A stretch of DNA of 64,000 nt, taken from Deltaproteobacteria bacterium RIFCSPHIGHO2_02_FULL_40_28. Its GTDB lineage: Bacteria > UBA10199 > 2-12-FULL-40-28. The position numbers and the translations under genes were made by a program. The notes under the pieces are model-generated. The model worked only from the letters and a program-made list of their open reading frames with translations, was not told the origin of the DNA and searched no databases. The stretch lies in contig MGRJ01000020.1 in assembly GCA_001798135.1 (NCBI GenBank), forward strand, positions 31,513 through 95,512, given 5' to 3'. Below, piece after piece: positions 11,887 through 63,878 of this stretch. The number at the start of each line of letters is the position of its first letter. The stretch's first letter is position 1.

Positions 11887-11992
11887 GGTCAGGGGGGAGT
11901 ATTTCTTTCGTCCCTGCGGAACTCCTCGCCCTTCGACTTTGCTCAGGGCTCGTCAGACAGTCCTCGCTCCTCAAGAAACACTCCCCCCTGCC
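11887..11992 (-). repeat. Family-A GC-rich structured repeat (conserved core, complementary flanks), copy 1
   Basis: Reverse complement carries the core CGAGGACTGTCTGACGAGCC...GGCGAGGAGTTCCGCAGG flanked by inverted arms (GGTCAGGGGGGAG / CTCCCCCCTGCC); intergenic after panC. Confidence 0.85.
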
Positions 11993-12061
11993 TTCCACGT
12001 ACCTTCATATTGAGTTATATTCTGGATTTTTTTATTTTATTTGTGTTAAATAATTTTCCTC

Positions 12062-17630: not shown

Positions 17631-17688
17631 AATACCTTAGCACTCCTACGAATTTGCTTTGTTTTTTTATTCGGTCTATACTTTTTCC

Positions 17689-18450
17689 ATGCTGACCAGT
17701 GTTCAAGATTTTTTAGCCGAAGCTACTTCTAAGCGCCAAGTTGTAGGGACTTGGGGTTTTAACTCCAATCGTGATTTTTCTAAAGTATCAGCAGAAGAAA
17801 CCAATGTTTGGTTTTTTGAACAAGTTTTTAATTTTTTACGTTCTTTTTTTGGATTGGTTTTGCCCGATAATTTAGAAATTATTACCTACAACGCTACTAA
17901 ACATTTAAGAAAAGAAAACCTAGAACAACAAACTTTTTTGGATGAATTAATGCTGATGATGAAAGGTTTAAAAGAACCCATCTGGACCCTTCGTCTTAAT
18001 TTAAACCTGGTTGGTTTTTTACGCACTCATCATAATCCCGATCAACTGGTGCGTATTCAAATCCAAGAACCAAGTTCTTTTATTGCTTGGGGTGGTCCAG
18101 ATGAAACAGGTTTCCAAAATTTTAGTATTTCCTACACTTTGTTTAACGAAAGTGTTTTGGAAGGAAGAGATGAAATGGTTTGGTCAGTCAATCAACCCAT
18201 TTTAGAAAAAGCTCTTAAAAAGTGGGAGAGACAAACAGGCCAGATGATTCAACTCATTGATACCAATAGTACAGCAGCCCCTGTTTATCGTCATGGTTTT
18301 AGAAAACCAATGCGCCGTCGTCCCATGCTGAAACGTCGTCCTGTTCCACCTCTGGGGAATGCACCCGGTGTAACCGGTAGACCCATGCCCGCAGGGGCTC
18401 CCAGTCGAGGGATTCCACCACCACGCCCTCCCATGCCACCCCGTAAGTAA
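17689..18450 (+). CDS. Hypothetical protein with Pro/Arg-rich C-terminal tail
   Basis: ATG at 17689 (TTG-initiated frame from 17659); C-terminal ~60 aa rich in P/R/G (RRRPMLKRRPVPPLG...PPPRPPMPPRK). Confidence 0.45.
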   Translation: MLTSVQDFLAEATSKRQVVGTWGFNSNRDFSKVSAEETNVWFFEQVFNFLRSFFGLVLPDNLEIITYNATKHLRKENLEQQTFLDELMLMMKGLKEPIWTLRLNLNLVGFLRTHHNPDQLVRIQIQEPSSFIAWGGPDETGFQNFSISYTLFNESVLEGRDEMVWSVNQPILEKALKKWERQTGQMIQLIDTNSTAAPVYRHGFRKPMRRRPMLKRRPVPPLGNAPGVTGRPMPAGAPSRGIPPPRPPMPPRK

Positions 18451-19120: not shown

Positions 19121-19742
19121 GAAAATAAAAATATTTCTGTTTTGTTTTTGTTTTATTTCAGAAATTTGGGCTGGAATTACACTTTCCCAAAAGCTTCAAG
19201 AACACTATCAAACTCTTCAATTCTGGTCTGCTGATTTTGAGCAACAAACCTATGTGGAAATTTTAGATAAAAAAATTAAAAAACAAGGGCGCATTTTTAT
19301 GAAAAAATCCGGAGAAATGCGCATTGAATATCAAGGCCATGGATCTAAAACTTATATAAGTAATGGGAAAAAAGTATGGATTTATTCACCGGATTTAAAT
19401 CAAACTGAAGTGTTTGATCAGTCCAAACTTCTTTCCAAAGAAGCTATTACTTTTTTAAATGGTTTGGGAGATTTAGAAAAAGATTTTGCAACACGTTCTT
19501 TTAATCCTGTAAAAGATCCCAGTTTTCGTTTTGATATTCCCAAGGAGCTTCAATATTTAGAGCTTATTCCTCGTAAAAAAAGTTCTGTGATTTCTAAAAT
19601 TCTTTTAGGGATCGAACCTGTGAGTAGTTTGGTAACCGAAGCTACTCTTTCCAATGTTTCTGGAAATGTAACTCGTTATGTTTTTAAAAATATCGATATT
19701 AAAACTAATCCAAGTCAGGATCTTTTTACCTTGGAGGAATAA
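19110..19742 (+). CDS. lolA: Outer-membrane lipoprotein carrier LolA-like protein
   Basis: Signal peptide (IFLFCFCFISEIWA) and LolA-like blocks (GRIFMKKSGEMRIEY, GKKVWIYSPDLNQTEVFD); start overlaps the elbB stop. Confidence 0.7.
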   Translation: MRLKKIKIFLFCFCFISEIWAGITLSQKLQEHYQTLQFWSADFEQQTYVEILDKKIKKQGRIFMKKSGEMRIEYQGHGSKTYISNGKKVWIYSPDLNQTEVFDQSKLLSKEAITFLNGLGDLEKDFATRSFNPVKDPSFRFDIPKELQYLELIPRKKSSVISKILLGIEPVSSLVTEATLSNVSGNVTRYVFKNIDIKTNPSQDLFTLEE

Positions 19743-20233
19743 TGCCTAGCTTTGACGTTGTTTCTGAAATCAATCTTCAAGAAGTAGACAATGCAGTAAA
19801 CCAAGCTTCCAAAGAAATTGGAACACGCTATGATTTTCGTGGATCTAAATGTTCTCTTACTTTTGAAAAAGAAAAAAAATTAATCCAAATTATCGGGGAT
19901 GATGATTATAAAATGAAAGCCATGATTGATATTTTGCAAAGTAAAATTCATAAAAGAGGCATTGCACTTAATGCTCTTCAATTTGGTAAAATAGAAGACT
20001 CAGGCGGCAGTTTAAAAAGATGCACGGTTACTTTGGTGATGGGAATTGATCAAGAAAAAGCCAAAAGCATTATTAAAATCATTAAAGATATGAAATTAAA
20101 GATTCAAGCCCAAATTCAAGAAGAGAAAGTGAGAGTAACTGGAAAAAATAAGGACGATTTGCAAGACACGATTTCTTTTTTGAAGGGTCAAACATTTGAG
20201 ATTCCTCTTCAATTTTCCAATTTTAGGGATTAA
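19742..20233 (+). CDS. yajQ: YajQ-family nucleotide-binding protein (UPF0234)
   Basis: MPSFDVVSEINLQEVDNAVNQASKEIGTRYDFRGS is a characteristic YajQ N-terminus; about 163 aa. Confidence 0.85.
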   Translation: MPSFDVVSEINLQEVDNAVNQASKEIGTRYDFRGSKCSLTFEKEKKLIQIIGDDDYKMKAMIDILQSKIHKRGIALNALQFGKIEDSGGSLKRCTVTLVMGIDQEKAKSIIKIIKDMKLKIQAQIQEEKVRVTGKNKDDLQDTISFLKGQTFEIPLQFSNFRD

Positions 20234-20267: not shown

Positions 20268-20443
20268 GTCATTCCCGCGAAGGCGGGGGTCCATCTTGGT
20301 TCCCCTCCTTTGTAAGGAGGGGTTAGGGGAGGTAGAGAGTTTAGTAAGACTCTACCCCCTCCAACTCCCCCTTACAAAGGGGGAGAGTACAGATGGATCC
20401 CTGCCGGAGTTTACCCCTGCGAAGGCAGGGGCAGGGATGACAC
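20268..20443. repeat. Composite palindromic element: family-B terminal inverted repeats enclosing family-C hairpins
   Basis: Left end GTCATTCCCGCGAAGGCGGGGGTCCATCT, right end AGATGGATCCCTGCC...GGGATGAC. Interior has perfect hairpins CCCCTCC-TTTGTAA-GGAGGGG and CTCCCCC-TTACAAA-GGGGGAG. About 175 bp, GC-rich in an AT-rich context. Confidence 0.85.
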
Positions 20444-20523
20444 GAAACCGTAATTTTTAGAGGTTCCCTTAAGAAGTAGTGGTACAGTTTGAATTTTAAG
20501 AGTGAAGAGGAACTATGAAAATT

Positions 20524-20925
20524 TTAGTTGGCAGGTGGGTCATTAGGTTTAATCTTAATACTTTTGTAACCATATCCACCTACACCACCAGCAGCGATGT
20601 ATAGAATAGCTTTTACGAACTCTTTAACAATTTCATCTTTATTCAGATAAAGAGCATATGCAAAAAAACCCAAAATAAGTGTTAAGCTTATTCCTGCAAA
20701 CCAAAATATTTTTTTAATTATATCTCTTTGATGAGTTCTATTTAACTCTAGATCCCCTGCTTGGACTTGCATGCTTTGCACTGCATACTTATAACTTCTT
20801 TCATCAGAAGCTGTCCTAGCTTCGATTTCTTTTTCTCGAACCTTGAGTTCTTCTTTCTGAAATTCAAGAAATTTTAATGGAAGTTGGTTTGGGTCAGCAG
20901 GGAGATTTATATTGTTTTCAGACAT
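20524..20925 (-). CDS. Hypothetical single-pass membrane protein
   Basis: 133 aa: charged, coiled-coil-like N-terminal part, one TM helix (FWFAGISLTLILGFFAYALYL), Gly-rich C-terminal tail (GGVGGYGYK); no homolog recognised. Confidence 0.4.
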   Translation of the reverse strand: MSENNINLPADPNQLPLKFLEFQKEELKVREKEIEARTASDERSYKYAVQSMQVQAGDLELNRTHQRDIIKKIFWFAGISLTLILGFFAYALYLNKDEIVKEFVKAILYIAAGGVGGYGYKSIKIKPNDPPAN

Positions 20926-20926
20926 T

Positions 20927-21130
20927 TTAGCTGCCTAGCACAACCTTATAAACTGGCAACTTATATTTGATTTTGATTTTACCAAAATCTTTTTGACCTA
21001 ACTTAGGGGGAAGTACCTGGACAGATTCAATATTAAATTTTTCTCTATCTCTTCGTTTAAGATATTCAGAGGGCTCAACCACTTCTTCTTTAATGGGAAT
21101 TGTTTTTAAAGTTGATTCACTCACTTCCAT
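20927..21130 (-). CDS. Hypothetical small protein
   Basis: 67-aa ORF whose stop abuts the start of the 133-aa membrane protein (1-nt gap), suggesting co-transcription. Confidence 0.35.
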   Translation of the reverse strand: MEVSESTLKTIPIKEEVVEPSEYLKRRDREKFNIESVQVLPPKLGQKDFGKIKIKYKLPVYKVVLGS

Positions 21131-21290
21131 ATTATCTTCTAATTATCGTCGAAAGTCTACAATTGCAATACAATTTATATCCTTTTTAGTAGCTTTGATA
21201 TGGTGCATATTAGTTTAAAATATTTTTAATAAAGCCTTATTTATCAATAGGTTAAATTATTTTTTACAGATCTTTCTAAGGATTAACAGT

Positions 21291-21370
21291 CTGCGATAGG
21301 AACCCATCTTAATTCCCCTCCTTTGTCCCACAGGGACTTCGGAGGGGTAAGGGGAGGTAGAGAGTTTTGT
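21291..21370. repeat. Family-C partial element (left half of the 20268 composite)
   Basis: ACCCATCTTAATTCCCCTCCTTTGT...GGAGGGGTAAGGGGAGGTAGAGAGTTT closely matches the interior of the composite element. Confidence 0.75.
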
Positions 21371-21475
21371 ATACACCAGCTAAAAGTGAAAATACTATAC
21401 TACTAATTAAAACTTTCCCTTTTCACAAAATCTCTTTTCGTTTAAAATACTTAAGTTCAATCAAGAGGAGGAAAA

Positions 21476-21955
21476 ATGGCTAAGATTGTTATGAGTGAAT
21501 TTGAAGTAGAGCTTCCCCCCAATTGGAAGGATCAGGGTATGATTACGCTTACAATGCCTTCTACCGACCCTAAGGTGAGGCCCAATATTATTGTTACAGT
21601 TGAACGTTTGCAAAACCCAACTGATCTCAATTCTTATTTTGATAAAATTAAAAAGTCTGTTCAAGCCAGGGGAATTAATAGCTTTAAGGTATTAAGCGAG
21701 AAAGATGTGGCCTTAAGTGGTATCCCTGCCAAAATGATGATTTGTACATGGGATTTGGCAGCTATGAAAACCATGATGGGCCCTAAAGCTGCTAATTTGG
21801 AGCATATTCAGGATGGTCAAATGGTGCAGCAAATTCAGGTTTCTTGCTTAAGAAACACAGTTGCTATTAATCTTACTGCAAGCTTTCCTGCCGAGCAGTT
21901 TGAATTGTATTCCAGGCCCTTTCAGAACTTTATCAAAGGTTTTAAGTTCCTGTAA
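21476..21955 (+). CDS. Hypothetical protein
   Basis: 159-aa ORF with an RBS-like GAGGAGG upstream; no signal peptide or motif recognised. Confidence 0.45.
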   Translation: MAKIVMSEFEVELPPNWKDQGMITLTMPSTDPKVRPNIIVTVERLQNPTDLNSYFDKIKKSVQARGINSFKVLSEKDVALSGIPAKMMICTWDLAAMKTMMGPKAANLEHIQDGQMVQQIQVSCLRNTVAINLTASFPAEQFELYSRPFQNFIKGFKFL

Positions 21956-27104: not shown

Positions 27105-27853
27105 GATACCCCCTCACCCTGCACCCTCTTCCCCAAGGGGGAGAAGGGAAACTTAGTTGTTAAAATTGAAGCTGCATGCAAGGCTGCTGTTTCTACTCGA
27201 AGAATCAAAGGCCCTAACGAGCACAAAGTAAAATTAACTTTTTCTCCTAGAGCTATTTCTGCTGGATGCCATCCCCCTTCAGGTCCAATCCAGAGGTTAA
27301 TGTCATTAAGTTGCTCTGGAAATTTTATTTGGGCTAAAGAAGGATGTTTTCCTTTTTCAGCGCAAAAAATATTGAAATGATTTTTTTGTTTTTGAATGGC
27401 TTCCTCAAAATGGAGGGCAGAATTAATTTTTAAAGGTTGAATGCGTCCGCATTGTTTTTGGGCTTCAGTTGCAATTTTTTCAAAACGAGAAAATCTAGAT
27501 TCTTTTTCTATTTTACCAATGGAAAAACGAGTGTGGATGGGAGTAAGAGAGGCTAGATTTAATTCTACTGCCTTTTGAATAATCAGTTCTGTTTTTTGAC
27601 CTTTAAGCATGCCTAGAAAAAGATGTAGAGGGTAAGGAGGGGATATTTCTACAACTTTCTTAAGATTTTCTACACAAACAGTTTTTCCAATGCTTATAAT
27701 TTTTCCTTCATAGTGAGTTTTAATTCCATCATGTAAAGCTAGGCTTTCTCCTGGTTTCATTCGCAATACTTTAGAAATATGATAGGCTTCATCATCAGTG
27801 ATGAGAACACAACCTTGACTTATTTGATGGGGATCGGCTTTAAAATAAGGCAT
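27101..27853 (-). CDS. rsmE: 16S rRNA (uracil1498-N3)-methyltransferase RsmE
   Basis: RsmE-like N-terminus and SPOUT-type C-terminal domain (NLWIGPEGGW); the last ~13 codons are encoded by a GC-rich palindromic repeat. Confidence 0.8.
   Translation of the reverse strand: MPYFKADPHQISQGCVLITDDEAYHISKVLRMKPGESLALHDGIKTHYEGKIISIGKTVCVENLKKVVEISPPYPLHLFLGMLKGQKTELIIQKAVELNLASLTPIHTRFSIGKIEKESRFSRFEKIATEAQKQCGRIQPLKINSALHFEEAIQKQKNHFNIFCAEKGKHPSLAQIKFPEQLNDINLWIGPEGGWHPAEIALGEKVNFTLCSLGPLILRVETAALHAASILTTKFPFSPLGKRVQGEGVS
27109..27152. repeat. Family-D GC-rich palindromic unit inside the rsmE 3' coding end
   Basis: CCCCCTCACCCTGCACCCTCTTCCCCAAGGGGGAGAAGGG; same unit as in the 42275 element. Confidence 0.75.
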
Positions 27854-28817: not shown

Positions 28818-28849
28818 TCTATGTGACTTTGTTATTCCCTGCATCATTT

Positions 28850-28917
28850 GTCATCCCCGCGCAGGCGGGGATCCATCTTTGAATTTAAGATGGATTCCCA
28901 CCTTCGTGGGAATGACA
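28850..28917. repeat. Family-B palindromic element
   Basis: GTCATCCCCGCGCAGGCGGGGATCCATC...GATGGATTCCCACCTTCGTGGGAATGAC: two inverted hairpin units; intergenic after the ROK kinase gene. Confidence 0.85.
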
Positions 28918-28942
28918 TGGAGAGGTATGAGAATGACGGATT

Positions 28943-30726: not shown

Positions 30727-30744
30727 ATTAAGTTTTTTCAGATG

Positions 30745-30826
30745 CGGGTGACGCTGGGGGGTGTTTTAAAAGCGCAGCGGTAACGAGCGCGAGCATTTAA
30801 AATACCCCCCAAGCGGCAGGACCCGC
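30745..30826. repeat. Family-E GC-rich palindromic element
   Basis: GCGGGTGACGCTGGGGGGTGTTTTAAA...TTTAAAATACCCCCCAAGCGGCAGGACCCGC; long imperfect hairpin between the divergent epimerase and GT2 genes. Confidence 0.8.
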
Positions 30827-37646: not shown

Positions 37647-38352
37647 AGTCATAACTCCCCCAATTCTGGTGATGATTCATGGAGCTGGTGGAAATTATAC
37701 CAACTGGCCCCTTTCTTTAAGAAAGTTGCCAGGCATCAATATTGTAGCTCTTGATTTGCCAGGGCATGGTAAATCTAAGGAAGAGGGTTTTGATTCTACC
37801 AACGCCTATGCTCATTTTGTTTCCAATTTTGTTACAAATTCCAATCTTAAAAAAGTGGTGCTTGTAGGACATTCGATGGGTGGCGCCATTGCCATGTACG
37901 AAGCTCTTGGCAAACCAAGTTGGCTTTGTGGTTTGGTTTTACTAAGTACGGGGGCTAAACTCAAAGTATCTTCTCAATTGATGGAATTGTTAAAAAATCA
38001 TTCGAAAAATATCAGTTCGTTTTTATCTCAAAATTTATTTAGTACTCATGCTGATCCTTTGCTTATTTCTGAAAGTGAAAAACAATTAAGTAAAATAAAT
38101 CCCAAAGTTTTACTGGGTGATTTTGTTGCTTGTGATAATTTTGATATCAGAGATCGTATTAAGGAAATTAAAATTCCCACCCTGATTATTGTTGGAGAAA
38201 AAGATTGTATGACGCCCCCATCTTATTCACAATTTCTGGCTGAAAATATTTTGGGTGCACAACTTGAAATCATAAAAGACGCAGGACATATGGTGATGTT
38301 GGAGAAACCTGATGAGGTTTCGAAATTAATTGTAAGTTTTATAAATCGATAG
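37621..38352 (+). CDS. Alpha/beta-fold hydrolase
   Basis: Nucleophile elbow GHSMGG, HG oxyanion region (IHGAGGN), C-terminal His (GHMVM). Confidence 0.75.
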   Translation: MQKQKTQYKVITPPILVMIHGAGGNYTNWPLSLRKLPGINIVALDLPGHGKSKEEGFDSTNAYAHFVSNFVTNSNLKKVVLVGHSMGGAIAMYEALGKPSWLCGLVLLSTGAKLKVSSQLMELLKNHSKNISSFLSQNLFSTHADPLLISESEKQLSKINPKVLLGDFVACDNFDIRDRIKEIKIPTLIIVGEKDCMTPPSYSQFLAENILGAQLEIIKDAGHMVMLEKPDEVSKLIVSFINR

Positions 38353-38437
38353 CGGGTCCTGCCGCCAGGAGGTTTCCCGCTGGTGCTCGCCCTAAGGCTG
38401 CGCGCCATCGGAAGCCCTCCTCCTGGCGTCACCCGCT
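38351..38437. repeat. Family-E GC-rich palindromic element (opposite orientation)
   Basis: AGCGGGTCCTGCCGCCAGGAGG...CCTCCTGGCGTCACCCGCT; termini are inverted complements of each other and match the ends of the 30745 element. Confidence 0.8.
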
Positions 38438-38459
38438 TAAGATATTACGCCTGCATCTT

Positions 38460-40355: not shown

Positions 40356-40460
40356 AAAATCTCCTTAAGGGTGGTCTATTTTTTCCTTTAAAACCAAGGG
40401 AGAAGGGCATAACATGCCTACTTTACATGGGTCAAGACCCAACACATAACAAATACAAAG

Positions 40461-40551
40461 CTGACAGGGGGATTCCTTTCGGGCCCTGCGGAACTCCTCG
40501 CCCGAAGGCTCGTCAGACAGTCCTCGGTCCCTTCAGGAACCCCCCTGCCAG
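40461..40551 (-). repeat. Family-A GC-rich structured repeat, copy 2
   Basis: Same core (reverse orientation) with different but mutually complementary arms (CTGACAGGGGGATTCC / GGAACCCCCCTGCCAG); between divergent ilvC and the ABC permease. Confidence 0.85.
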
Positions 40552-40565
40552 CTTCATACCCATCG

Positions 40566-41487: not shown

Positions 41488-42267
41488 ATGAAAAATAGAT
41501 TTTTTATTTACTTAGCTCTTTTTTTTGTAGTGATTGTTTTTTTAGGGCCCAATCTAGCTCCTCATCATCCTTTTCACTATGATCTTTCCCAAGGATTTTT
41601 AACACCTTCCTTTCAGCATTGGTTAGGCACAGATGAAAATGGGCGCGATATTTTAAGTCGTATTCTTTTTGGCTCCCGGATTTCCATGGGAATTGCGCTT
41701 GTGGTGGTTTTAGTATGTGCTTTTCTTGGAACCATCATTGGTTTTTTAGCAGGTTATTTTGGTGGAATGGTTGATCGAATTTTTTTAATGATTGCTGATC
41801 TTTTTCAGGCTTTCCCGGGAATCCTTTTAGCCATTGCCATTGCAGCTTTTTTACCACCCAGTTTTTTGAATGTTGTTGTTATTTTGTGCCTTGTAGGATG
41901 GGTAGGCTATGCCCGTATAACAAGGGCTCAAGTGCTTTCTCTTCGCGAGAAAGAATTTATGGAAGCTGGAAGAGCGTTGGGACTTCCTTTGTGGCGTCTT
42001 TTTTCATTTCATGTGTTTCCTAATTTAGCAGGGCCACTGGTTGTGCAAGCAACCTTTGGAATGGCAGGGGTAATTTTAATAGAATCTACCCTTAGTTTTT
42101 TAGGTTTAGGTGTGCCAGCAACAGTGCCTAGTTTAGGACGTATGATGGATAGTGGAAGTTCTTTATTGCTTGTTGCTCCGCATATTGCGCTTTTTCCCGG
42201 CTTAGCCATTATGTTAATCATTTTGATTTTTAATTTAGCTGGAGATCAATTAAGGGAGAATATTTAG
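41488..42267 (+). CDS. ABC transporter permease (Dpp/Opp C-type)
   Basis: N-terminal region LGTDENGRDILSRILFG typical of DppC/OppC; multi-TM. Confidence 0.85.
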   Translation: MKNRFFIYLALFFVVIVFLGPNLAPHHPFHYDLSQGFLTPSFQHWLGTDENGRDILSRILFGSRISMGIALVVVLVCAFLGTIIGFLAGYFGGMVDRIFLMIADLFQAFPGILLAIAIAAFLPPSFLNVVVILCLVGWVGYARITRAQVLSLREKEFMEAGRALGLPLWRLFSFHVFPNLAGPLVVQATFGMAGVILIESTLSFLGLGVPATVPSLGRMMDSGSSLLLVAPHIALFPGLAIMLIILIFNLAGDQLRENI

Positions 42268-42274
42268 AGGCATT

Positions 42275-42406
42275 GCGGGTGACACGGCCTTGTCCCCTCC
42301 CCCTTGAGGGGGGAGGGTTAGGGAGAGGGTGAAAATTTTGAATTACCCCTCACCCTGCACCCTCTCCCCCAAGGGGAGAGGGGAAGAATGGGCAGGACCC
42401 GCTGAC
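42275..42406. repeat. Composite element: family-E-like termini enclosing family-D hairpins
   Basis: Starts GCGGGTGACACGG, ends GGCAGGACCCGCTGAC; interior hairpins CCCCTCCCCCTTGAGGGGGGAGGG and CCCTCTCCCCCAAGGGGAGAGGG; between dppC-like and nagZ. Confidence 0.8.
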
Positions 42407-42413
42407 TTTTATT

Positions 42414-43472: not shown

Positions 43473-44578
43473 ATCAGTTGATTAAGAAACAAACCAGCTG
43501 GACAAATACGGATATTTTCTTTTGAAAGAAAATCTTTCTTACCCTGAAGTGAAATTTGCCAGGCTGGAACGGAGGGAAATTTTGTTTTAAGATATTTAAG
43601 TCCTTCTGAAGGAGCATCATCAGAGAGCTTGCATTCAACAAACAAGTAAGGTTTACGGTTTTCAGTTACAACAAAATCAACCTCTCGTTTATGCACATCA
43701 CGAAAATAACAAAGGGCCATTTCTCTGCCTTGCGTGTCATACAAATAATGGGTCCACTTCAAAAGATGGCAAGCTATCATATTTTCGAAACGAAGAGCAG
43801 AATTGTCTACAAGGGTCCAATCATAGTGGTAATGTTTTTGTTCTTTTTTAACAGCTCTGATTTTAGGAGCCCCAAAGGGTGCAAGCCTAAAAATAGCATA
43901 GAGTCGCTCAAGAACATTGAGCCAACGAGAAACTGTTTTATGATTTAATTGTAGATCTTCTCTTAAGCTATTGATGGAAAGAGGGCTTCCAACCAATTCA
44001 GGCAAACGAATCATAAGAAGTTCTAGTTGTCCTAAATTTTCGATGCCCTCAAGAGATCTCACTTCATCTTGAATCAAGCGATTGCGGTATTCAAGAGACC
44101 ATCGTTTGGATTCAATTTCATTTTTTTTAAGATAGGGTTCTGGGAATCCGCCCAATTGGAGAAGTTGTTGTAAATGAGAGGAAGAAGACATCTTCAGTTC
44201 GGCAAAAGAAAGAGGGTGAAGACGCAAATAATGATAGCGGCCTTGGAGCGAATCGCCACCAAAACGATAATAATCAAGCCTAGCACTTCCTGTAATTAAA
44301 AATTGGCAATTCTTTTTTCTTTCATCGTAGAGTCCTTTGAGATAATTCCGCCACTGACGATACTTGTGGATTTCATCAAAAATAAGGAGCCCTTTTTCAG
44401 GGAGTTCGTATTTAAGAATACGTTCCCGATGTTCTGGGATGTCCCAGTTCAAATAAACATGGGAAGAATAAGCCAAATCCAAGGCGAGGGTTGTTTTCCC
44501 AACCTGCCGTGGTCCACCTACGAAAACCATTTTGGAATTCAAGTCTTTAAGGATTTGTTTTTGAAGATACCGCTCCAT
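43469..44578 (-). CDS. AAA+ ATPase, AAA_14/DUF4143-type
   Basis: Walker A GPRQVGKTTLA, Walker B LLIFDEIH, DUF4143-like C-terminus; in tandem with the paralog at 44620. Confidence 0.8.
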   Translation of the reverse strand: MERYLQKQILKDLNSKMVFVGGPRQVGKTTLALDLAYSSHVYLNWDIPEHRERILKYELPEKGLLIFDEIHKYRQWRNYLKGLYDERKKNCQFLITGSARLDYYRFGGDSLQGRYHYLRLHPLSFAELKMSSSSHLQQLLQLGGFPEPYLKKNEIESKRWSLEYRNRLIQDEVRSLEGIENLGQLELLMIRLPELVGSPLSINSLREDLQLNHKTVSRWLNVLERLYAIFRLAPFGAPKIRAVKKEQKHYHYDWTLVDNSALRFENMIACHLLKWTHYLYDTQGREMALCYFRDVHKREVDFVVTENRKPYLFVECKLSDDAPSEGLKYLKTKFPSVPAWQISLQGKKDFLSKENIRICPAGLFLNQLI

Positions 44579-44619: not shown

Positions 44620-45777
44620 TTATACAATGGTATAAGGCAACTCTTTTACAAATTTAGCAAAAGGGAGAACCCTTATGGGAAAAGTGGCATGTTCATAATC
44701 TTTTACCCCTAGATGAACTTGATAAAAGCGAGGTATTTTTAGCCTTTGGCAATAGTAAAAAAGAGAAGGATTAATTGTTGTTTGATTGATATGGCACTCA
44801 ACAGCAAATAATGGTTTTTTTTGTTTTAAGACAACAAAATCAACCTCACGTTTATCTGTATCACGGATATAACGAAGTTCCATAGGAAATCCCTCTACAT
44901 CTTCCATAAAGTTGCAATATTTTAGGAGATGAGAAGCAACCATGTTTTCAAAGCGGGGGCCTTTTTCTTCAACAAGGGACCAATCCCATAAATAAGCCTT
45001 ATTTTCCTTTTTAACTGCCCTGATTTTAGGAGCTCCAAAGGGAGGAATACGAAATAAAACAAAAAGACGTTCTAGAATGATTAGCCAATTTTGAACAGTT
45101 GGGTGAGAAACTTGGAGATCTTCTCTTAAAGCATTAATAGAAAGAGGGGACCCTACCAAGGCAGGGAGTCTTTCTGCAAGTTGACCAACCAGAGTTACCT
45201 CTTCAACACGTTCTAAATCTCTTAAGTCATCTCGTAATACTTGGTTAAATCTTTCCTGATGCCATCGCCTGAGTTTTTTTTGTGATTGGGAAAATAAAGG
45301 TTCTGGAAAGCCACCAAACTGAAAGAGGGATTCTACAGCATCAACATGAGCCTCTTTGTCTAGTTCTAAAAGACTAAAAGGGTGGAGTCTAAAAAAATGA
45401 TATCTTCCCGTAAGGGCATCTCCACCACGTCTATAGAGATCAAGTCTGGCGCTTCCTGTAACTAAATAAGCACGTTGTGTTTTTGTTTTATCATAAAGAC
45501 CTTTAAGCCAATTACGCCATCTTTTATATTTATGAATTTCATCGAATACCAAAAGTTTTTGATTGGGTGGAAATTGAAAATTAAGGAGAAGCTGTTGATC
45601 TTCTAAGAAATCCCAGTTAAAGTAGGCAGGATGGTTTTCGCTTCCTCCTAGGAGATTTAAAGCCAAGGTTGTTTTACCTACTTGGCGAGGCCCTGATAGA
45701 AAAACCATTTTTTCTTTTAAGTCTTCTTGAATATAGGGGGTTAAATAGCGTTTTGGCAGGTTATTAGTTATTTTCAT
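44620..45777 (-). CDS. AAA+ ATPase, AAA_14/DUF4143-type
   Basis: Walker A GPRQVGKTTLA, Walker B LLVFDEIH; start codon lies 3 nt from a perfect 30-bp palindrome. Confidence 0.8.
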   Translation of the reverse strand: MKITNNLPKRYLTPYIQEDLKEKMVFLSGPRQVGKTTLALNLLGGSENHPAYFNWDFLEDQQLLLNFQFPPNQKLLVFDEIHKYKRWRNWLKGLYDKTKTQRAYLVTGSARLDLYRRGGDALTGRYHFFRLHPFSLLELDKEAHVDAVESLFQFGGFPEPLFSQSQKKLRRWHQERFNQVLRDDLRDLERVEEVTLVGQLAERLPALVGSPLSINALREDLQVSHPTVQNWLIILERLFVLFRIPPFGAPKIRAVKKENKAYLWDWSLVEEKGPRFENMVASHLLKYCNFMEDVEGFPMELRYIRDTDKREVDFVVLKQKKPLFAVECHINQTTINPSLFYYCQRLKIPRFYQVHLGVKDYEHATFPIRVLPFAKFVKELPYTIV

Positions 45778-45780
45778 AGT

Positions 45781-45810
45781 ACTTAAAATTACTCATGAGT
45801 AATTTTAAGT
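45781..45810. promoter_or_regulatory. Perfect 30-bp palindrome (putative operator) immediately upstream of the AAA ATPase gene
   Basis: ACTTAAAATTACTCATGAGTAATTTTAAGT is exactly self-complementary; 3 nt from the start codon at 45777; flanked by further AAAATTACT / AAAATAACT motif copies. Confidence 0.5.
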
Positions 45811-46014
45811 TATATTAAAATTACTAATATCTAAAGTCAACAAATAAAAATCCTTTTTGTGGTCTAACCCCCCCAAAACGAGTGGTTAAGACCTCAAACA
45901 TACAAAAAGCATACTAAAATAACTAATAATATCAAATAGTTATATATATCATTTTTGGCATTGGCCTTGCAATTGTCATAAAGTAACCCGGGGTGGGGAT
46001 TGTGGATATTTTTT

Positions 46015-51175: not shown

Positions 51176-51186
51176 AGTTCTTCTGT

Positions 51187-51212
51187 TATTCCCACGAAGG
51201 TGGAGATCTATC
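51187..51212. repeat. Family-B half-unit (fragment)
   Basis: TTATTCCCACGAAGGTGGAGATCTATC resembles one arm of the family-B unit (compare 28889-28916). Confidence 0.5.
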
Positions 51213-51395
51213 TTAATTTTTTGAAAGAAGTAACTTTTTAAAAGAATGTTTTAAGGATGGATTTTTTTTCCAAATTTCAAACATAAGTTGGCGATAACCA
51301 TCTAGCCAAAGCAAAGTATCCTCTGCCGATAGCTTGGGAGGAGGATTTTTTTTATTCCATTTCGCCCAAATCTTTTTTTCTGAAATCGCCATCAT
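51213..51395 (-). CDS. Hypothetical small protein
   Basis: 60-aa ORF 1 nt downstream of the NTase-like gene; its 3' end runs into a GC-rich repeat fragment, so coding status is uncertain. Confidence 0.3.
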   Translation of the reverse strand: MMAISEKKIWAKWNKKNPPPKLSAEDTLLWLDGYRQLMFEIWKKNPSLKHSFKKLLLSKN

Positions 51396-54674: not shown

Positions 54675-54762
54675 GAGAGGGAGGCTTTTGGAGGTTTCGA
54701 GGACTGTCTGACGAGCCTTCAAGGCGAGGAGTTCCGCAGAAACCGGAAAAAGTCTCCCTCCC
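54675..54762 (+). repeat. Family-A GC-rich structured repeat, copy 3
   Basis: Core CGAGGACTGTCTGACGAGCCTTCAAGGCGAGGAGTTCCGCAG with arms GAGGGAGGCTTTT / AAGTCTCCCTCC; between acnA and the secreted-protein gene. Confidence 0.8.
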
Positions 54763-54777
54763 AGCACCATAAATTTT

Positions 54778-55545
54778 ATGAAAAATATTTTTTTCATTTT
54801 TTCTTTTCTTTTTTCTATTTTTTACTTTTCACTGCTGGCTCACGCTGGTTTGGTGATTACAAGCCGTTACGAATCACAGGCTGATAAAATTCAATCAACC
54901 GATAAAGCCATGATAGAAAAAGATCGCATGCGGGTTGATGTTTCTACCCCTGGAAATAATCATCTCATGATTTATCGAGCCGATTTAGGAAAAATGTGGA
55001 TTATTGATCCAGAAAAAAAACAGTACCAAGAACTTTCCAAACAAGAAATTACAGGCATGATGCAAAAAATGCAAGAAGCCACCAAAAGACTTGAAGCTCA
55101 AATGGCATCGATGCCGCAAGCTCAAAGGGAAGCCATGAAAAAAATGATGCCTCAAATGCCAAAGCCAAGTGTAGTTACTTATCAGAAAAAAGCTGATGGG
55201 ATTAAAATTGGAAATTATACTTGTACCCTCTATGAGGGATTTGTGGATCAGAAAAAAGTAAGTGAAATGTGGACAACAGATTTAAAAGCTTTATCTATGA
55301 GCCCAGAAGATTTTGCAGTGATGAATTCTTTTGGTGAAATGTTTGAAGCTATTTCAAAAGATTTTACATCACCCTATAAAATTAGTTCTCTCGGGCTTCC
55401 TATTCGCATGGCTCAATACAATCCCGATGGAAGCCAAAAACATTTAACCGAGGTTGTTTCCATTGAAAGACAAAATACAGATCCCGCTCTTTTTGAGCTT
55501 CCAAAAGATTTTGTAAAACAAAGCAGGGATGATTTTGATGAGTAA
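54778..55545 (+). CDS. Hypothetical secreted protein
   Basis: Signal peptide (FFIFSFLFSIFYFSLLAHA) then a 230-aa Met/Lys-rich domain; no family recognised. Confidence 0.5.
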   Translation: MKNIFFIFSFLFSIFYFSLLAHAGLVITSRYESQADKIQSTDKAMIEKDRMRVDVSTPGNNHLMIYRADLGKMWIIDPEKKQYQELSKQEITGMMQKMQEATKRLEAQMASMPQAQREAMKKMMPQMPKPSVVTYQKKADGIKIGNYTCTLYEGFVDQKKVSEMWTTDLKALSMSPEDFAVMNSFGEMFEAISKDFTSPYKISSLGLPIRMAQYNPDGSQKHLTEVVSIERQNTDPALFELPKDFVKQSRDDFDE

Positions 55546-55990: not shown

Positions 55991-56821
55991 GTGATGCTCT
56001 TAATTACAAATTTACAACATAATGTAAAAATGTATTACAAATTTACAACATGTTGTAAATTTGCTTTGGCATGGGGCTTGCTGCCCTTGGTTGTTTTGAA
56101 CCCAACCGATGCAAAAGACATTCTTGTTTCCTATGTGCACACCTACATCAAGGAAGAAATTAAAGAAGAAGGGCTGATCAGAAAAGCAGAACCCTTTGTA
56201 CGTTTTTTAGAAATTGCAGCCATGATGAATGGCCAACAAATTAATGCGGAAAATATTGCGAGGGATGCAAAAATTCCGCGAAGCACAGTGGATATTTATT
56301 TTTCTATTTTGGAAGATACACTTCTTGGTTATCGGCTTCCCTCTTACCGGCCTAGAGCTAAGGTGCGGGAGCAAACTCATCCAAAATATTATTGGTTTGA
56401 TTCAGGTGTTGCCCGTGCAGCCGCAGGCCTTTTAAACGATGCTCCCGATCCAGCTTGGCTTGGCTATGCCTTGGAAACACTTGTTTATCTTGAACTGAGG
56501 GTTCATAACCATATATCGGGAAAGGAAAGACTTTTATTTTTTTATCGTGTTTCCAATACAATTGAGATCGATTTTATCATTGAAACCCGCAAAGCTGTTA
56601 GTGCCTCCAAGGCCCACGTTGTTTGTGTTGAAGTCAAACATGCAAAAACATGGAACCGAAGATGGGAAACTCCCATGCGGGACTTAGCCTCTTCTGGAAA
56701 GGTGGTGGTGGAGAAAATGTTTGGGGTTTATCAAGGGGATCATCCCTATCATTTTGATGGGGTGGATGTTTATCCCATAGGTGATTTTTTAAAAATCCTT
56801 TACGAAGGGAAGGTTTTTTAG
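55991..56821 (+). pseudogene. 5'-truncated AAA_14/DUF4143-type ATPase gene (DUF4143 portion only)
   Basis: Translation aligns to the C-terminal DUF4143 part of the intact paralogs and lacks the whole P-loop domain. The upstream 129 bp are occupied by a repeat, and the first ~25 codons of the ORF consist of tandem palindromic DNA repeats. Confidence 0.5.
56003..56058. promoter_or_regulatory. Tandem 18-bp direct repeats, each with a palindromic half-site
   Basis: ATTACAAATTTACAACAT at 56003-56020 and 56034-56051; second copy forms the perfect palindrome TTACAACATGTTGTAA; centres about 31 bp apart. Confidence 0.4.
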
Positions 56822-62819: not shown

Positions 62820-62837
62820 TAGATATCGTGATTATTG

Positions 62838-63878
<1,041 letters not shown>

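What the first reader, a model, noticed from the sequence alone, without database searches (positions are those of the whole stretch)
20268..21370. Repeat-bracketed cassette carrying two small co-transcribed ORFs
A 175-bp composite palindromic element (20268-20443) and a partial copy of its interior (21291-21370) bracket about 0.85 kb containing only two minus-strand ORFs: a 67-aa protein and, 1 nt later, a 133-aa protein with a charged N-terminal region, one TM helix and a Gly-rich tail. Neither resembles anything I recognise. A small soluble protein plus a small membrane protein framed by MITE-like repeats is the architecture expected of a mobilised toxin/immunity, holin-like or abortive-infection-type module.
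Basis: partly seen in the sequence, partly recalled or inferred. Interest (0 to 1): 0.5.

Follow-up and report, generated by a model that had tools for sequence, protein, structure and literature searches.

The report
Phage-type two-gene membrane module, repeat-flanked
Two small back-to-back genes (a 67-residue soluble protein and a 133-residue membrane protein) belong to a widespread but unstudied gene pair carried mostly by temperate phages. In this bacterium the pair sits alone between two housekeeping genes, and the palindromic repeats on either side are ordinary intergenic repeats of this lineage, with no sign that they moved it.

Summary
A 176-bp nested palindrome (20268-20443) and an ~80-bp direct partial copy (21291-21370) flank two translationally coupled minus-strand genes, 67 aa and 133 aa.

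The genes are not orphans. The 133-aa protein has 528 cluster representatives and matches PHROG 2720. The 67-aa protein matches PHROG 2711. Both families have unknown function. In 14 independent contexts the two genes are always adjacent. About ten of those contexts are phage or prophage, next to an integrase, a cI/S24 repressor, cro or recombination genes.

A related metagenomic genome has yajQ directly next to the dcrB-like gene and lacks the pair. The pair is therefore an accessory insertion here.

The repeats are modular REP/REPIN-like palindromes. They occupy roughly 40% of the longer spacers in this window and also fill the empty site in the relative. The other homologous pairs I checked have no such repeats. 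The window holds no transposase, integrase or attC core.

Mobile, phage-type origin is supported; mobilisation by MITEs is not. My best reading is inferred, not shown: a holin-like helical-hairpin membrane effector gated by a small partner, acting in exclusion, abortive infection or addiction. The composite palindrome probably serves as a shared 3' hairpin for the two convergent transcripts.

The parts
20927..21130 (-). Gene 1 of the pair. A 67-aa basic soluble protein of the PHROG 2711 family, predicted beta-alpha-beta-beta.
20524..20925 (-). Gene 2 of the pair. A 133-aa membrane protein of the PHROG 2720 family: a long cytoplasmic helix that continues into TM1 (about 73-95), a 3-residue loop, then an amphipathic helix (97-124) with a conserved E/K face and a GGxGGY motif.
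   Evidence: The ORF is. There are 528 cluster representatives at E <= 1e-3. Alignment A1 shows conserved Q23, E33, D58, R63, E102, K105, G113, G116 and G117. It matches phrog_2720 at 3.6e-12, and all 50 aligned members match that family. The AF2 model has pLDDT 92.
20268..20443 (.). Composite nested palindrome with modules A-B-B'-A', lying between the convergent yajQ gene and the pair. It is a REPIN-like doublet inside a second doublet and probably acts as a shared 3' hairpin or terminator.
   Evidence: Searches give the sequence and module structure. The RNA fold is -114 kcal/mol with z = -8.3. Several independent assemblies break or switch locus within or at the outer end of this element.
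21285..21371 (.). Half element: a degenerate A tail plus a B module carrying a 12-nt nested mini-hairpin. It is in direct orientation relative to the left half of the composite and lies between the divergent 67-aa gene and the dcrB-like gene.
   Evidence: Its fold is not distinguishable from shuffles (z = -0.9).
21131..21284 (-). AT-rich upstream region of the pair containing sigma-70-like consensus matches. Its role as a promoter is inferred.
   Evidence: Consensus scan: TTGATA-17-AATATT at 21247-21219 and TAGACT-17-GATAAT at 21159-21131. These are consensus matches only.
19742..20233 (+). yajQ (DUF520), the left housekeeping boundary of the insertion.
   Evidence: Pfam PF04461 at 4.7e-63 and NCBIfam YajQ. 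The lolA-yajQ linkage is conserved in many genomes.
21476..21955 (+). DcrB-like gene, the right housekeeping boundary. In relative L103 it is directly adjacent to yajQ.
   Evidence: Pfam PF08786 at 8.3e-11. L103 and L104 carry homologues at 77% and 72% identity followed by fabH.

Best explanation
The two ORFs are a real, translationally coupled two-gene module of a widespread, uncharacterised family (PHROG 2711 + PHROG 2720). The family lives mainly in the accessory positions of temperate phages and prophages. In this Rifle groundwater 'Deltaproteobacteria' MAG, a solo copy was acquired horizontally and sits between yajQ and a dcrB-like gene.

Inferred mechanism. The 133-aa protein is anchored N-in by a helical hairpin. 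Its roughly 60-residue cytoplasmic helix probably drives oligomerisation. The second helix has an invariant E/K face and a GGxGGY glycine zipper, which would let it line a holin-like lesion or channel in the inner membrane. The co-translated 67-aa basic protein would bind it and act as gate, neutraliser or sensor. The outcome would be exclusion of superinfecting phage, abortive infection, or addiction.

The flanking palindromes are lineage-wide REP/REPIN-like mosaic elements that populate this spacer with or without the module. The composite one serves as a strong 3' hairpin for both convergent transcripts.

Shown: the genes are real and always paired, the family is phage-associated, a relative lacks the pair at this junction (which does not by itself give the direction of change), and the repeats are generic. 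Inferred: gain by horizontal transfer rather than loss in the relatives, membrane-lesion activity, the partner's regulatory role, and the terminator role.
For: Real family:
- 528 representatives at E <= 1e-3 and 145 at <= 1e-10. They have the same length and align end to end.
- All conserved residues are retained in the window copies.

Strict pairing:
- 14 independent contexts: the window, L006, L009, L011/L012, L013, L015, L017, L018, L019-L022, L108 and L111.
- The small gene is always immediately upstream, overlapping by ATGA or separated by 1-5 nt.
- Searching by the small protein recovers only loci that also carry the membrane partner.

Phage association:
- Both proteins match PHROG families.
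- Neighbours include an integrase plus HTH gene (L006, L022), an S24 repressor operon (L013), cro (L021), RecT/YqaJ genes (L011/L012, L019, L020, L111), and lysozyme and tail genes (L011).

Accessory status here:
- L103 reads lolA-yajQ-[291 bp]-dcrB-fabH with no pair.
- L104 reads ispH-dcrB-fabH with no pair.

Membrane effector:
- AF2 gives a helical hairpin at pLDDT 92.
- There is one strong and one amphipathic hydrophobic segment, with positive charges on both cytoplasmic sides.
- Sub-threshold Holin-X (PF07332) matches fall on the hairpin in 6 of 50 members, and one member matches a holin PHROG.

Generic repeats.

Stable 3' hairpin.
Against: - No experiment or homology ties the family to toxicity, defence or exclusion. 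PADLOC, Pfam and NCBIfam give nothing.
- hhalign against lambda RexB gives probability 0.5%.
- Fold searches return nothing for either protein.
- The holin matches fall below the curated cut-offs and may only reflect transmembrane composition.
- In three or four phages the pair lies in the early operon just after cro. That fits a lytic-cycle function as well as a lysogen-expressed defence.
- The small protein has no recognisable DNA-binding or antitoxin fold.
- The empty-site comparison rests on one relative at 63-82% protein identity, so loss in that lineage is not excluded.
- The two best copies of the B module do flank the module, which leaves some room for a role of repeat recombination in its arrival.
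Confidence: 0.45

Rival explanations
1. The flanking MITE-like repeats define a mobile cassette, and the pair was moved, or can be moved, as a unit by transposition or by recombination at these repeats. One version is Campbell-type integration of a circle through the shared A-tail/B module, which would leave direct repeats.
For: - The only two copies at 90% or better of this B subfamily in 64 kb lie 1.0 kb apart, in direct orientation, on either side of the pair.
- The segment is absent from the same junction in L103.
- An assembly from another sample (L003) joins the outer end of the composite to an unrelated locus, so the repeats are at least sites of assembly ambiguity or recombination.
Against: - The repeats are not cassette-specific. 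The A and B modules occur alone or in other combinations at 27108, 28848-28918, 42292-42385 and 51184, and in three consecutive spacers of the relative, including the empty site.
- About 40% of the longer spacers carry such elements.
- The five homologous pairs checked elsewhere lack flanking repeats.
- No target-site duplication is evident at either end.
- tblastn with one Y1 transposase and two phage integrases found no match in the window, and neither repeat contains an attC core motif.
- The two copies differ by 6-9% plus a 12-nt indel.
Confidence: 0.1
2. The pair is a non-lethal phage accessory function rather than a toxic effector. Examples would be a superinfection-exclusion or injection-blocking membrane protein, or an early-gene modulator of a host membrane process, with the small protein as a chaperone or co-factor.
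For: - In several phages the pair lies in early operons just after cro-like genes or among recombination genes.
- The solo copy here is stably maintained, with 100% identical protein across more than 20 contigs and samples.
- No toxin-like or antitoxin-like domain is detectable.
Against: Nothing separates this from the effector model computationally. An invariant charged face plus a glycine zipper in a membrane hairpin is more typical of pore- or lesion-forming small proteins. Tight translational coupling also fits stoichiometric neutralisation.
Confidence: 0.25
3. The pair is a holin/antiholin-type lysis-timing module.
For: - Weak Holin-X (PF07332, E ~0.01) and Phage_holin_2 matches fall on the hairpin in a few members.
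- One member matches the holin family phrog_3427 at 7e-6.
- The two-helix N-in/C-in topology resembles class II holins.
Against: - The pair is never adjacent to an endolysin. In L011/L012 the lysozyme cassette is on the opposite strand with its own small membrane ORFs.
- It usually sits near an integrase, repressor, cro or recombination genes.
- Here it is solo, with no lysis genes nearby.
- All the holin matches are below the curated thresholds.
Confidence: 0.08
4. The ORFs are spurious or decaying, and the region is simply a long repeat-rich spacer.
For: Shine-Dalgarno motifs are weak. The word-index protein search found only self hits.
Against: An exhaustive search finds hundreds of full-length relatives with conserved motifs. 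The partner gene is conserved in 14 contexts. Both window copies are intact.
Confidence: 0.01

Closest known systems
PHROG families phrog_2711 (about 69 aa) and phrog_2720 (about 134 aa), both annotated 'unknown function'
   Same: Both window proteins match these profiles nearly end to end, at E = 4.2e-14 and 3.6e-12. All 50 aligned relatives of the large protein and 6 of 8 relatives of the small one match the same families.
   Different: The window copy is not in a phage or prophage. It is a solo chromosomal pair between housekeeping genes. The PHROG entries carry no function, so membership names the family but does not explain it.
REP / REPIN / BIME-type intergenic palindromic repeats (own knowledge: Higgins 1982; Gilson 1991; Bertels & Rainey 2011)
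   Same: They are short, GC-rich, imperfect palindromes confined to spacers. They occur singly, as inverted doublets (28848-28918) and as mosaics. They are often found between convergent genes, where they form stable 3' hairpins. Copies are dispersed in this genome and in a relative.
   Different: No RAYT transposase was seen in the 64 kb. Genome-wide copy number was not measured. The modules are nested, a doublet inside a doublet, both here and at 42263-42408. There is no sequence similarity to the enterobacterial or Pseudomonas REPs that I know of.
Lambda RexA/RexB, a prophage-encoded sensor plus membrane-effector abortive-infection pair
   Same: It is a two-gene phage accessory module with a membrane component of about 140 aa. 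In L013 the pair lies downstream of, and co-oriented with, an S24 cI-type repressor, as rexAB does.
   Different: There is no homology (hhalign probability 0.5%). RexB has four transmembrane helices and RexA is 279 aa. Here the partner is only 60-90 aa and comes first. The pair is also found after cro.
GhoS/GhoT (type V toxin-antitoxin) and other small membrane-toxin modules
   Same: A small alpha/beta soluble protein is encoded first, followed by a small two-helix membrane protein. The occurrence pattern is solo chromosomal copies plus copies on mobile elements.
   Different: No sequence comparison could be run and nothing suggests homology. GhoT is 57 aa with no cytoplasmic coiled-coil. Toxicity has not been shown here.
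Class II holins, pinholins and the Holin-X family (PF07332)
   Same: They share a two-helix N-in/C-in membrane hairpin with Gly-rich packing motifs. A minority of members give weak profile matches on the hairpin.
   Different: The matches are below the gathering thresholds. This family has a 70-residue N-terminal cytoplasmic helix that typical holins lack. It is not linked to endolysins.
Integron gene cassettes (ORF plus a 3' attC palindrome, direct-orientation sites)
   Same: The ORFs are followed by a large imperfect palindrome and preceded by a related site in direct orientation.
   Different: Neither repeat contains a GTTRRRY/RYYYAAC core, and tblastn with two phage integrases found no match in the window. 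The same repeats lie between core genes, including in the relative's empty site.

Membership tests
PHROG 2720 / PHROG 2711 gene pair | Significant full-length match of each protein to the family profile | tested here: met
   phrog_2720 at E = 3.6e-12 (residues 18-119 against profile 18-119 of 134). phrog_2711 at E = 4.2e-14 (residues 11-62 against profile 16-67 of 69). All 50 and 6 of 8 relatives match the same families.
PHROG 2720 / PHROG 2711 gene pair | The two genes are adjacent and co-oriented, with the small gene first | tested here: met
   This holds in 14 of 14 independent contexts.
REP/REPIN/BIME-like repeats | Short imperfect palindromes restricted to extragenic DNA | tested here: met
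   The A and B modules are hairpins, and all copies lie in spacers.
REP/REPIN/BIME-like repeats | Many dispersed copies per genome, occurring singly, as inverted doublets and as mosaics | tested here: inconclusive
   In 64 kb I found at least 6 sites with A or B modules and at least 12 spacers with GC-rich palindromes of several families. These include one doublet (28848-28918) and two nested composites. At least one more copy lies outside the window (L003). The genome-wide count was not obtained.
REP/REPIN/BIME-like repeats | A cognate RAYT (Y1 transposase) in the genome, typically flanked by REPs | tested here: inconclusive
   tblastn with a Y1_Tnp protein finds nothing in the window. The rest of the genome was not searched.
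MITE / repeat-bounded mobile cassette | Terminal inverted repeats at both ends of the mobile unit | tested here: not met
   The composite element has its own inverted termini. However, the parts shared between the two flanking repeats are in direct orientation, and the upstream copy is only a half element.
MITE / repeat-bounded mobile cassette | Target-site duplication at the boundaries | tested here: not met
   There is no matching short duplication next to 20268/20443 or 21285/21371.
MITE / repeat-bounded mobile cassette | The same repeat-cargo-repeat unit recurs at other loci or genomes, or the cargo family is generally repeat-bounded | tested here: not met
   All contigs with the pair share this one locus, apart from a repeat-switched scaffold. 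Five homologous pairs checked elsewhere show no comparable flanking repeats.
Lambda RexAB-type Abi | Homology of the membrane component to RexB | tested here: not met
   hhalign of A1 against RexB gives probability 0.5%.
Lambda RexAB-type Abi | Phage-triggered membrane depolarisation that aborts infection | not testable with these tools
   This requires an experiment.
Known anti-phage defence systems (PADLOC-DB 2.0) | Significant match to any system component | tested here: not met
   The only hit is a chance-level match at E = 0.0085 and 12.9 bits.
Holins (Pfam Holin-X PF07332 and other holin models) | Score above the family's gathering threshold | tested here: not met
   The window protein has no hit at E <= 1. 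Six of 50 relatives score about 16 bits against a cut-off of 28.4.
Holins (Pfam Holin-X PF07332 and other holin models) | Genomic linkage to an endolysin or spanin lysis cassette | tested here: not met
   The pair is never adjacent to a lysin. In L011/L012 the lysozyme is on the other strand, about 1.1 kb away, with its own small ORFs.
Type II/V toxin-antitoxin module | Two small co-transcribed, translationally coupled genes with patchy distribution on mobile elements and chromosomes | tested here: met
Type II/V toxin-antitoxin module | One product is toxic and the other neutralises it | not testable with these tools
   This requires expression assays.
Integron cassette | An attC site with conserved R/L cores and an intI integrase nearby | tested here: not met
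   Neither repeat contains a GTTRRRY or RYYYAAC core, and tblastn with two phage integrases found no match in the window.

The most novel reading that the evidence does not exclude
The PHROG 2711 + 2720 pair is a previously unrecognised, very widespread two-component phage-borne system for exclusion, abortive infection or addiction. There are at least 528 clusters of the membrane protein at 50% identity. A holin-like helical-hairpin effector would be held in check or triggered by a 60-90-aa partner with a new small fold. The solo chromosomal copy here would be a domesticated defence or addiction module.
Probability: 0.35. Interest if true: 0.65.

Novelty: new variant of a known kind. Interest (0 to 1): 0.5.

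Why it matters
If the pair is a membrane-acting exclusion, abortive-infection or addiction module, it adds a compact (about 600 bp), abundant and completely uncharacterised system to the phage-host conflict repertoire. It has no match in PADLOC-DB, Pfam or NCBIfam. It would also give a function to two sizeable 'unknown' PHROG families. The system is small enough to synthesise and test directly.

The repeat result is a useful caution. In genomes saturated with REP/REPIN-like mosaics, 'repeat-bracketed' is not evidence of mobilisation. The nested doublet-in-doublet palindromes, and the assembly breaks they cause, are of minor interest for MAG assembly and for REPIN biology outside the Gammaproteobacteria.

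Tried and rejected
**Searches that gave no functional lead**
- Word-index protein searches of both ORFs found only self hits. This was misleading, because the exhaustive phmmer search found the family.
- Pfam, NCBIfam and PADLOC found no family.
- Rfam returned only chance miRNA-hairpin matches on the palindrome, and nothing at gathering thresholds in the whole window.
- tblastn of four family members against GenBank phages, and of one against plasmids, found no match.
- PDB sequence profiles found nothing.
- RexB homology was rejected.
- Literature searches for the PHROG ids and the MAG name gave zero papers. A functional-metagenomics defence paper was checked and had nothing matching.

**Synteny and repeat checks that fell short**
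It returned only distant genomes (62% identity or less) and did not even recover this species. It therefore showed conserved lolA-yajQ linkage but nothing downstream.
- The integron/attC idea was rejected.
- A 23-nt direct repeat flanking the pair in L015 was judged a chance match.
- Direct sequence homology between the window's spacer and L103's spacer is limited to short hairpin motifs. The claim is therefore 'same style and module family', not orthologous repeats.
Full report
**1. What is there**

The window comes from the Rifle groundwater MAG 'Deltaproteobacteria bacterium RIFCSPLOWO2_12_FULL_40_28' (GCA_001798255.1).

The local gene order is lolA, then yajQ (plus strand, 19742-20233), then the composite palindrome (20268-20443). 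Next come the 133-aa ORF (minus, 20524-20925), the 67-aa ORF (minus, 20927-21130) and an AT-rich 160 bp. These are followed by a half copy of the repeat (about 21285-21371), a DcrB-like gene (plus, 21476-21955) and fabH.

- The two ORFs are separated by one nucleotide.
- The palindrome's main arms are 56 nt and 77% complementary.
- The whole element folds as RNA at -114 kcal/mol with z = -8.3.
- The upstream partial copy matches the left half of the composite at 91-94% identity in direct orientation, with a 12-nt nested mini-hairpin inserted.

**2. The repeats are generic to this lineage**

Aligning the copies shows two modules.
- Module A is TGTCATYCCC-GCGAAGGC-GGGRATCCATCTT.
- Module B is TTCCCCTCCTTTGTAAGGAGGGGTWAGGGGAGGTAGAG.

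The composite is A-B-B'-A', one inverted doublet nested inside another. Elsewhere in the window the modules appear in other arrangements.
- A occurs as a simple inverted doublet at 28848-28918 and singly at 51184-51219.
- B-like units occur at 27108-27150.
- B-like units also form an inner pair inside different outer arms at 42263-42408.
- At least two further palindromic families are dispersed in the window.

Roughly 10-12 of about 24 spacers of 50 bp or more carry such elements. Repeats on both sides of an operon are therefore expected fairly often.

tblastn with one Y1 (RAYT-type) transposase and two phage integrases found no match in the 64 kb, and neither repeat contains an attC core motif. 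No target-site duplication is evident.

Several independent assemblies end inside the composite. One scaffold (L003) switches to an unrelated locus exactly at its outer end. At least one more copy must therefore exist elsewhere in the genome.

**3. The genes are a conserved pair**

Word-index searches found only self hits. An exhaustive phmmer search of 1.84 billion cluster representatives changed the picture. It found 528 relatives of the 133-aa protein at E <= 1e-3 and 145 at <= 1e-10. They have the same length and align end to end at 30-44% identity.

Both proteins match PHROG families of unknown function: phrog_2720 at 3.6e-12 and phrog_2711 at 4.2e-14. All 50 aligned relatives of the large protein, and 6 of 8 of the small one, match the same families. 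Pfam, NCBIfam and PADLOC give nothing.

A homologue of the 67-aa protein lies immediately upstream of the membrane-protein gene in every context I could read. It overlaps by ATGA or is separated by 1-5 nt.
- These contexts came from four routes: contigs encoding family members, IMG/VR contigs found with the large protein, IMG/VR contigs found with the small protein, and the window itself.
- Together they make 14 independent contexts.
- The small-protein family keeps P12, I34, F49-G50, I52, P59 and Y61.

Both window genes are intact and retain all family-conserved residues.

**4. Where the pair lives**

Most contexts are temperate phages or prophages.
- In a Delftia tsuruhatensis prophage the order is integrase, HTH gene, pair, next to Ogr/Delta, ERF and RdgC genes.
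- L022 has an integrase followed by the pair.
- In L013 the pair is co-oriented downstream of an S24 cI-type repressor.
- In L021 it lies directly after a P22-Cro-like gene.
- In L011/L012, L019, L020 and L111 it lies beside RecT/YqaJ recombination genes.
- In L108 it lies beside serine and tyrosine recombinases.

Two contexts are chromosomal islands. L009 has IS and Y1 transposases, a DUF4238 gene and a DUF4160/DUF2442 pair. L015 is the other.

The five homologous pairs checked elsewhere show no flanking palindromes comparable to those here.

**5. Presence or absence at this locus**

A metagenome search with the DcrB-like protein found three relatives.
- L103 has protein identities of 77% (DcrB), 63% (YajQ), 63% (FabH) and 82% (a neighbouring 263-aa ORF). 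Its order is lolA, yajQ, 291 bp, dcrB, fabH, with no trace of the pair.
- L104 has ispH directly upstream of dcrB-fabH, again without the pair.
- L103's 291-bp spacer, and the spacers on either side of it, are themselves filled with palindromic modules of the same style. One example is CTACCTCCCCTTTCTCCCCTCCTTATCAAGGAGGGG, against the window's CTCTACCTCCCCTAACCCCTCCTTACAAAGGAGGGG.

The repeats therefore belong to the spacer and the lineage, not to the cargo. The family's phage-centred, patchy distribution makes gain by horizontal transfer in the window lineage the parsimonious reading. Loss in the relatives cannot be excluded from one or two genomes at this distance. How the pair integrated is unknown. 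Recombination within a resident repeat cluster is possible, but nothing here shows it.

**6. What the proteins look like**

*The 133-aa protein.* AlphaFold2 with the 50-sequence alignment gives pLDDT 92. The model has one continuous helix (residues 12-93) and a second helix (97-124) folded back onto the end of the first.
- Residues 73-95 are the only strongly hydrophobic stretch.
- The second helix is amphipathic. It has a nearly invariant E102/K105 face followed by the GGxGGY motif, with G117 invariant.
- Basic residues flank both ends, which implies N-in/C-in topology with a 3-residue outer loop.
- No solved or predicted viral structure matches.
- A few relatives give sub-threshold matches of the hairpin to Holin-X (PF07332), and one matches a holin PHROG. 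This is suggestive only.

**7. Most likely mechanism (inferred)**

I read this as a phage-type two-protein membrane module. The hairpin protein would oligomerise through its long cytoplasmic helix and form a holin-like lesion or channel. The co-translated small partner would bind it as gate, neutraliser or sensor. The result would be superinfection exclusion, abortive infection or addiction.

The positions next to integrases and repressors, the presence of solo chromosomal and island copies, and the strict translational coupling all fit this kind of module. The copies placed after cro fit an early lytic role equally well.

Homology to RexB was tested and rejected. The resemblance to RexAB, to GhoST-type modules and to holins is therefore functional analogy only.

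The composite palindrome sits between convergent genes and forms an extremely stable hairpin. Its most economical role is a shared 3' terminator or stabiliser, as for REP/BIME elements. That role is also inferred.

**8. Verdict**

The segment is accessory and of mobile, phage-type origin. The repeats are bystanders typical of this lineage rather than the vehicle.

The interesting part is the gene pair. It is abundant, compact and strictly coupled, has no assigned function, and is absent from the Pfam, NCBIfam and PADLOC-DB libraries searched here. I score interest at 0.5, which is moderate. Nothing here is mechanistically surprising yet, but the module is a cheap and well-defined candidate for a new phage-conflict system.

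Noticed in passing
window 11892-11999 (+), 40458-40565 (+), 54678-54780 (-), 62836-62927 (-): A second dispersed repeat family of about 100 nt has four copies in 64 kb. Its core is invariant: CTGCGGAACTCCTCGCC...GGCTCGTCAGACAGTCCTC. It is intergenic and has no Rfam match. It could be another REP-type element or a small RNA family.
   Followed up: partly
window 42263-42408; also 30741-30826 and 38343-38443: There is a second nested palindrome. Its outer arms are GCGGGTGAC.../...GGCAGGACCCGC and they enclose an inner B-like inverted pair. Similar outer arms occur alone at two other spacers. The doublet-inside-doublet architecture is therefore recurrent in this genome.
   Followed up: partly
window 28848-28918 and 51184-51219: Module A appears as a clean inverted doublet (REPIN-like, 8-nt spacer) and as a single degenerate copy. 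This shows that A is an independent unit.
   Followed up: yes
L003 (ENA ERZ28563597 scaffold_2037) 600-850 and 1941 onward: An assembly from another sample has an N-gap plus about 200 bp of unrelated GC-rich sequence inside the upstream half element. It also switches to a pilM/N-type locus and a transposase exactly at the outer end of the composite. This is either a repeat-induced chimera or a real rearrangement.
   Followed up: partly
L009 3638-4135 and 11476-13340: One chromosomal homologue of the pair lies in an island that also holds a Y1 (IS200/RAYT-type) transposase, an IS1-like gene, a DUF4238 gene and a DUF4160/DUF2442 pair. This is a setting typical of defence or toxin-antitoxin islands.
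   Followed up: no
window 43668-44002 versus 44831-45165: Two tandem paralogous genes lie 1163 bp apart and share 70-81% nucleotide identity over at least 250 nt.
   Followed up: no
window 45762-45829 and 56003-56063: Two AT-rich near-perfect palindromes or tandem repeats lie in spacers. One has 34-nt arms with no loop. The other has 26-nt direct repeats that are themselves palindromic. They may be operator or origin-like sites.
   Followed up: no
window 17659-18450 (GC-rich tail 18311-18449): A 263-aa ORF is 76-82% identical in relatives L103 and L104. It ends in a Pro/Arg/Gly-rich low-complexity tail that stands out compositionally. Its position relative to fabH differs between this genome and the relatives, which indicates a local rearrangement.
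   Followed up: no
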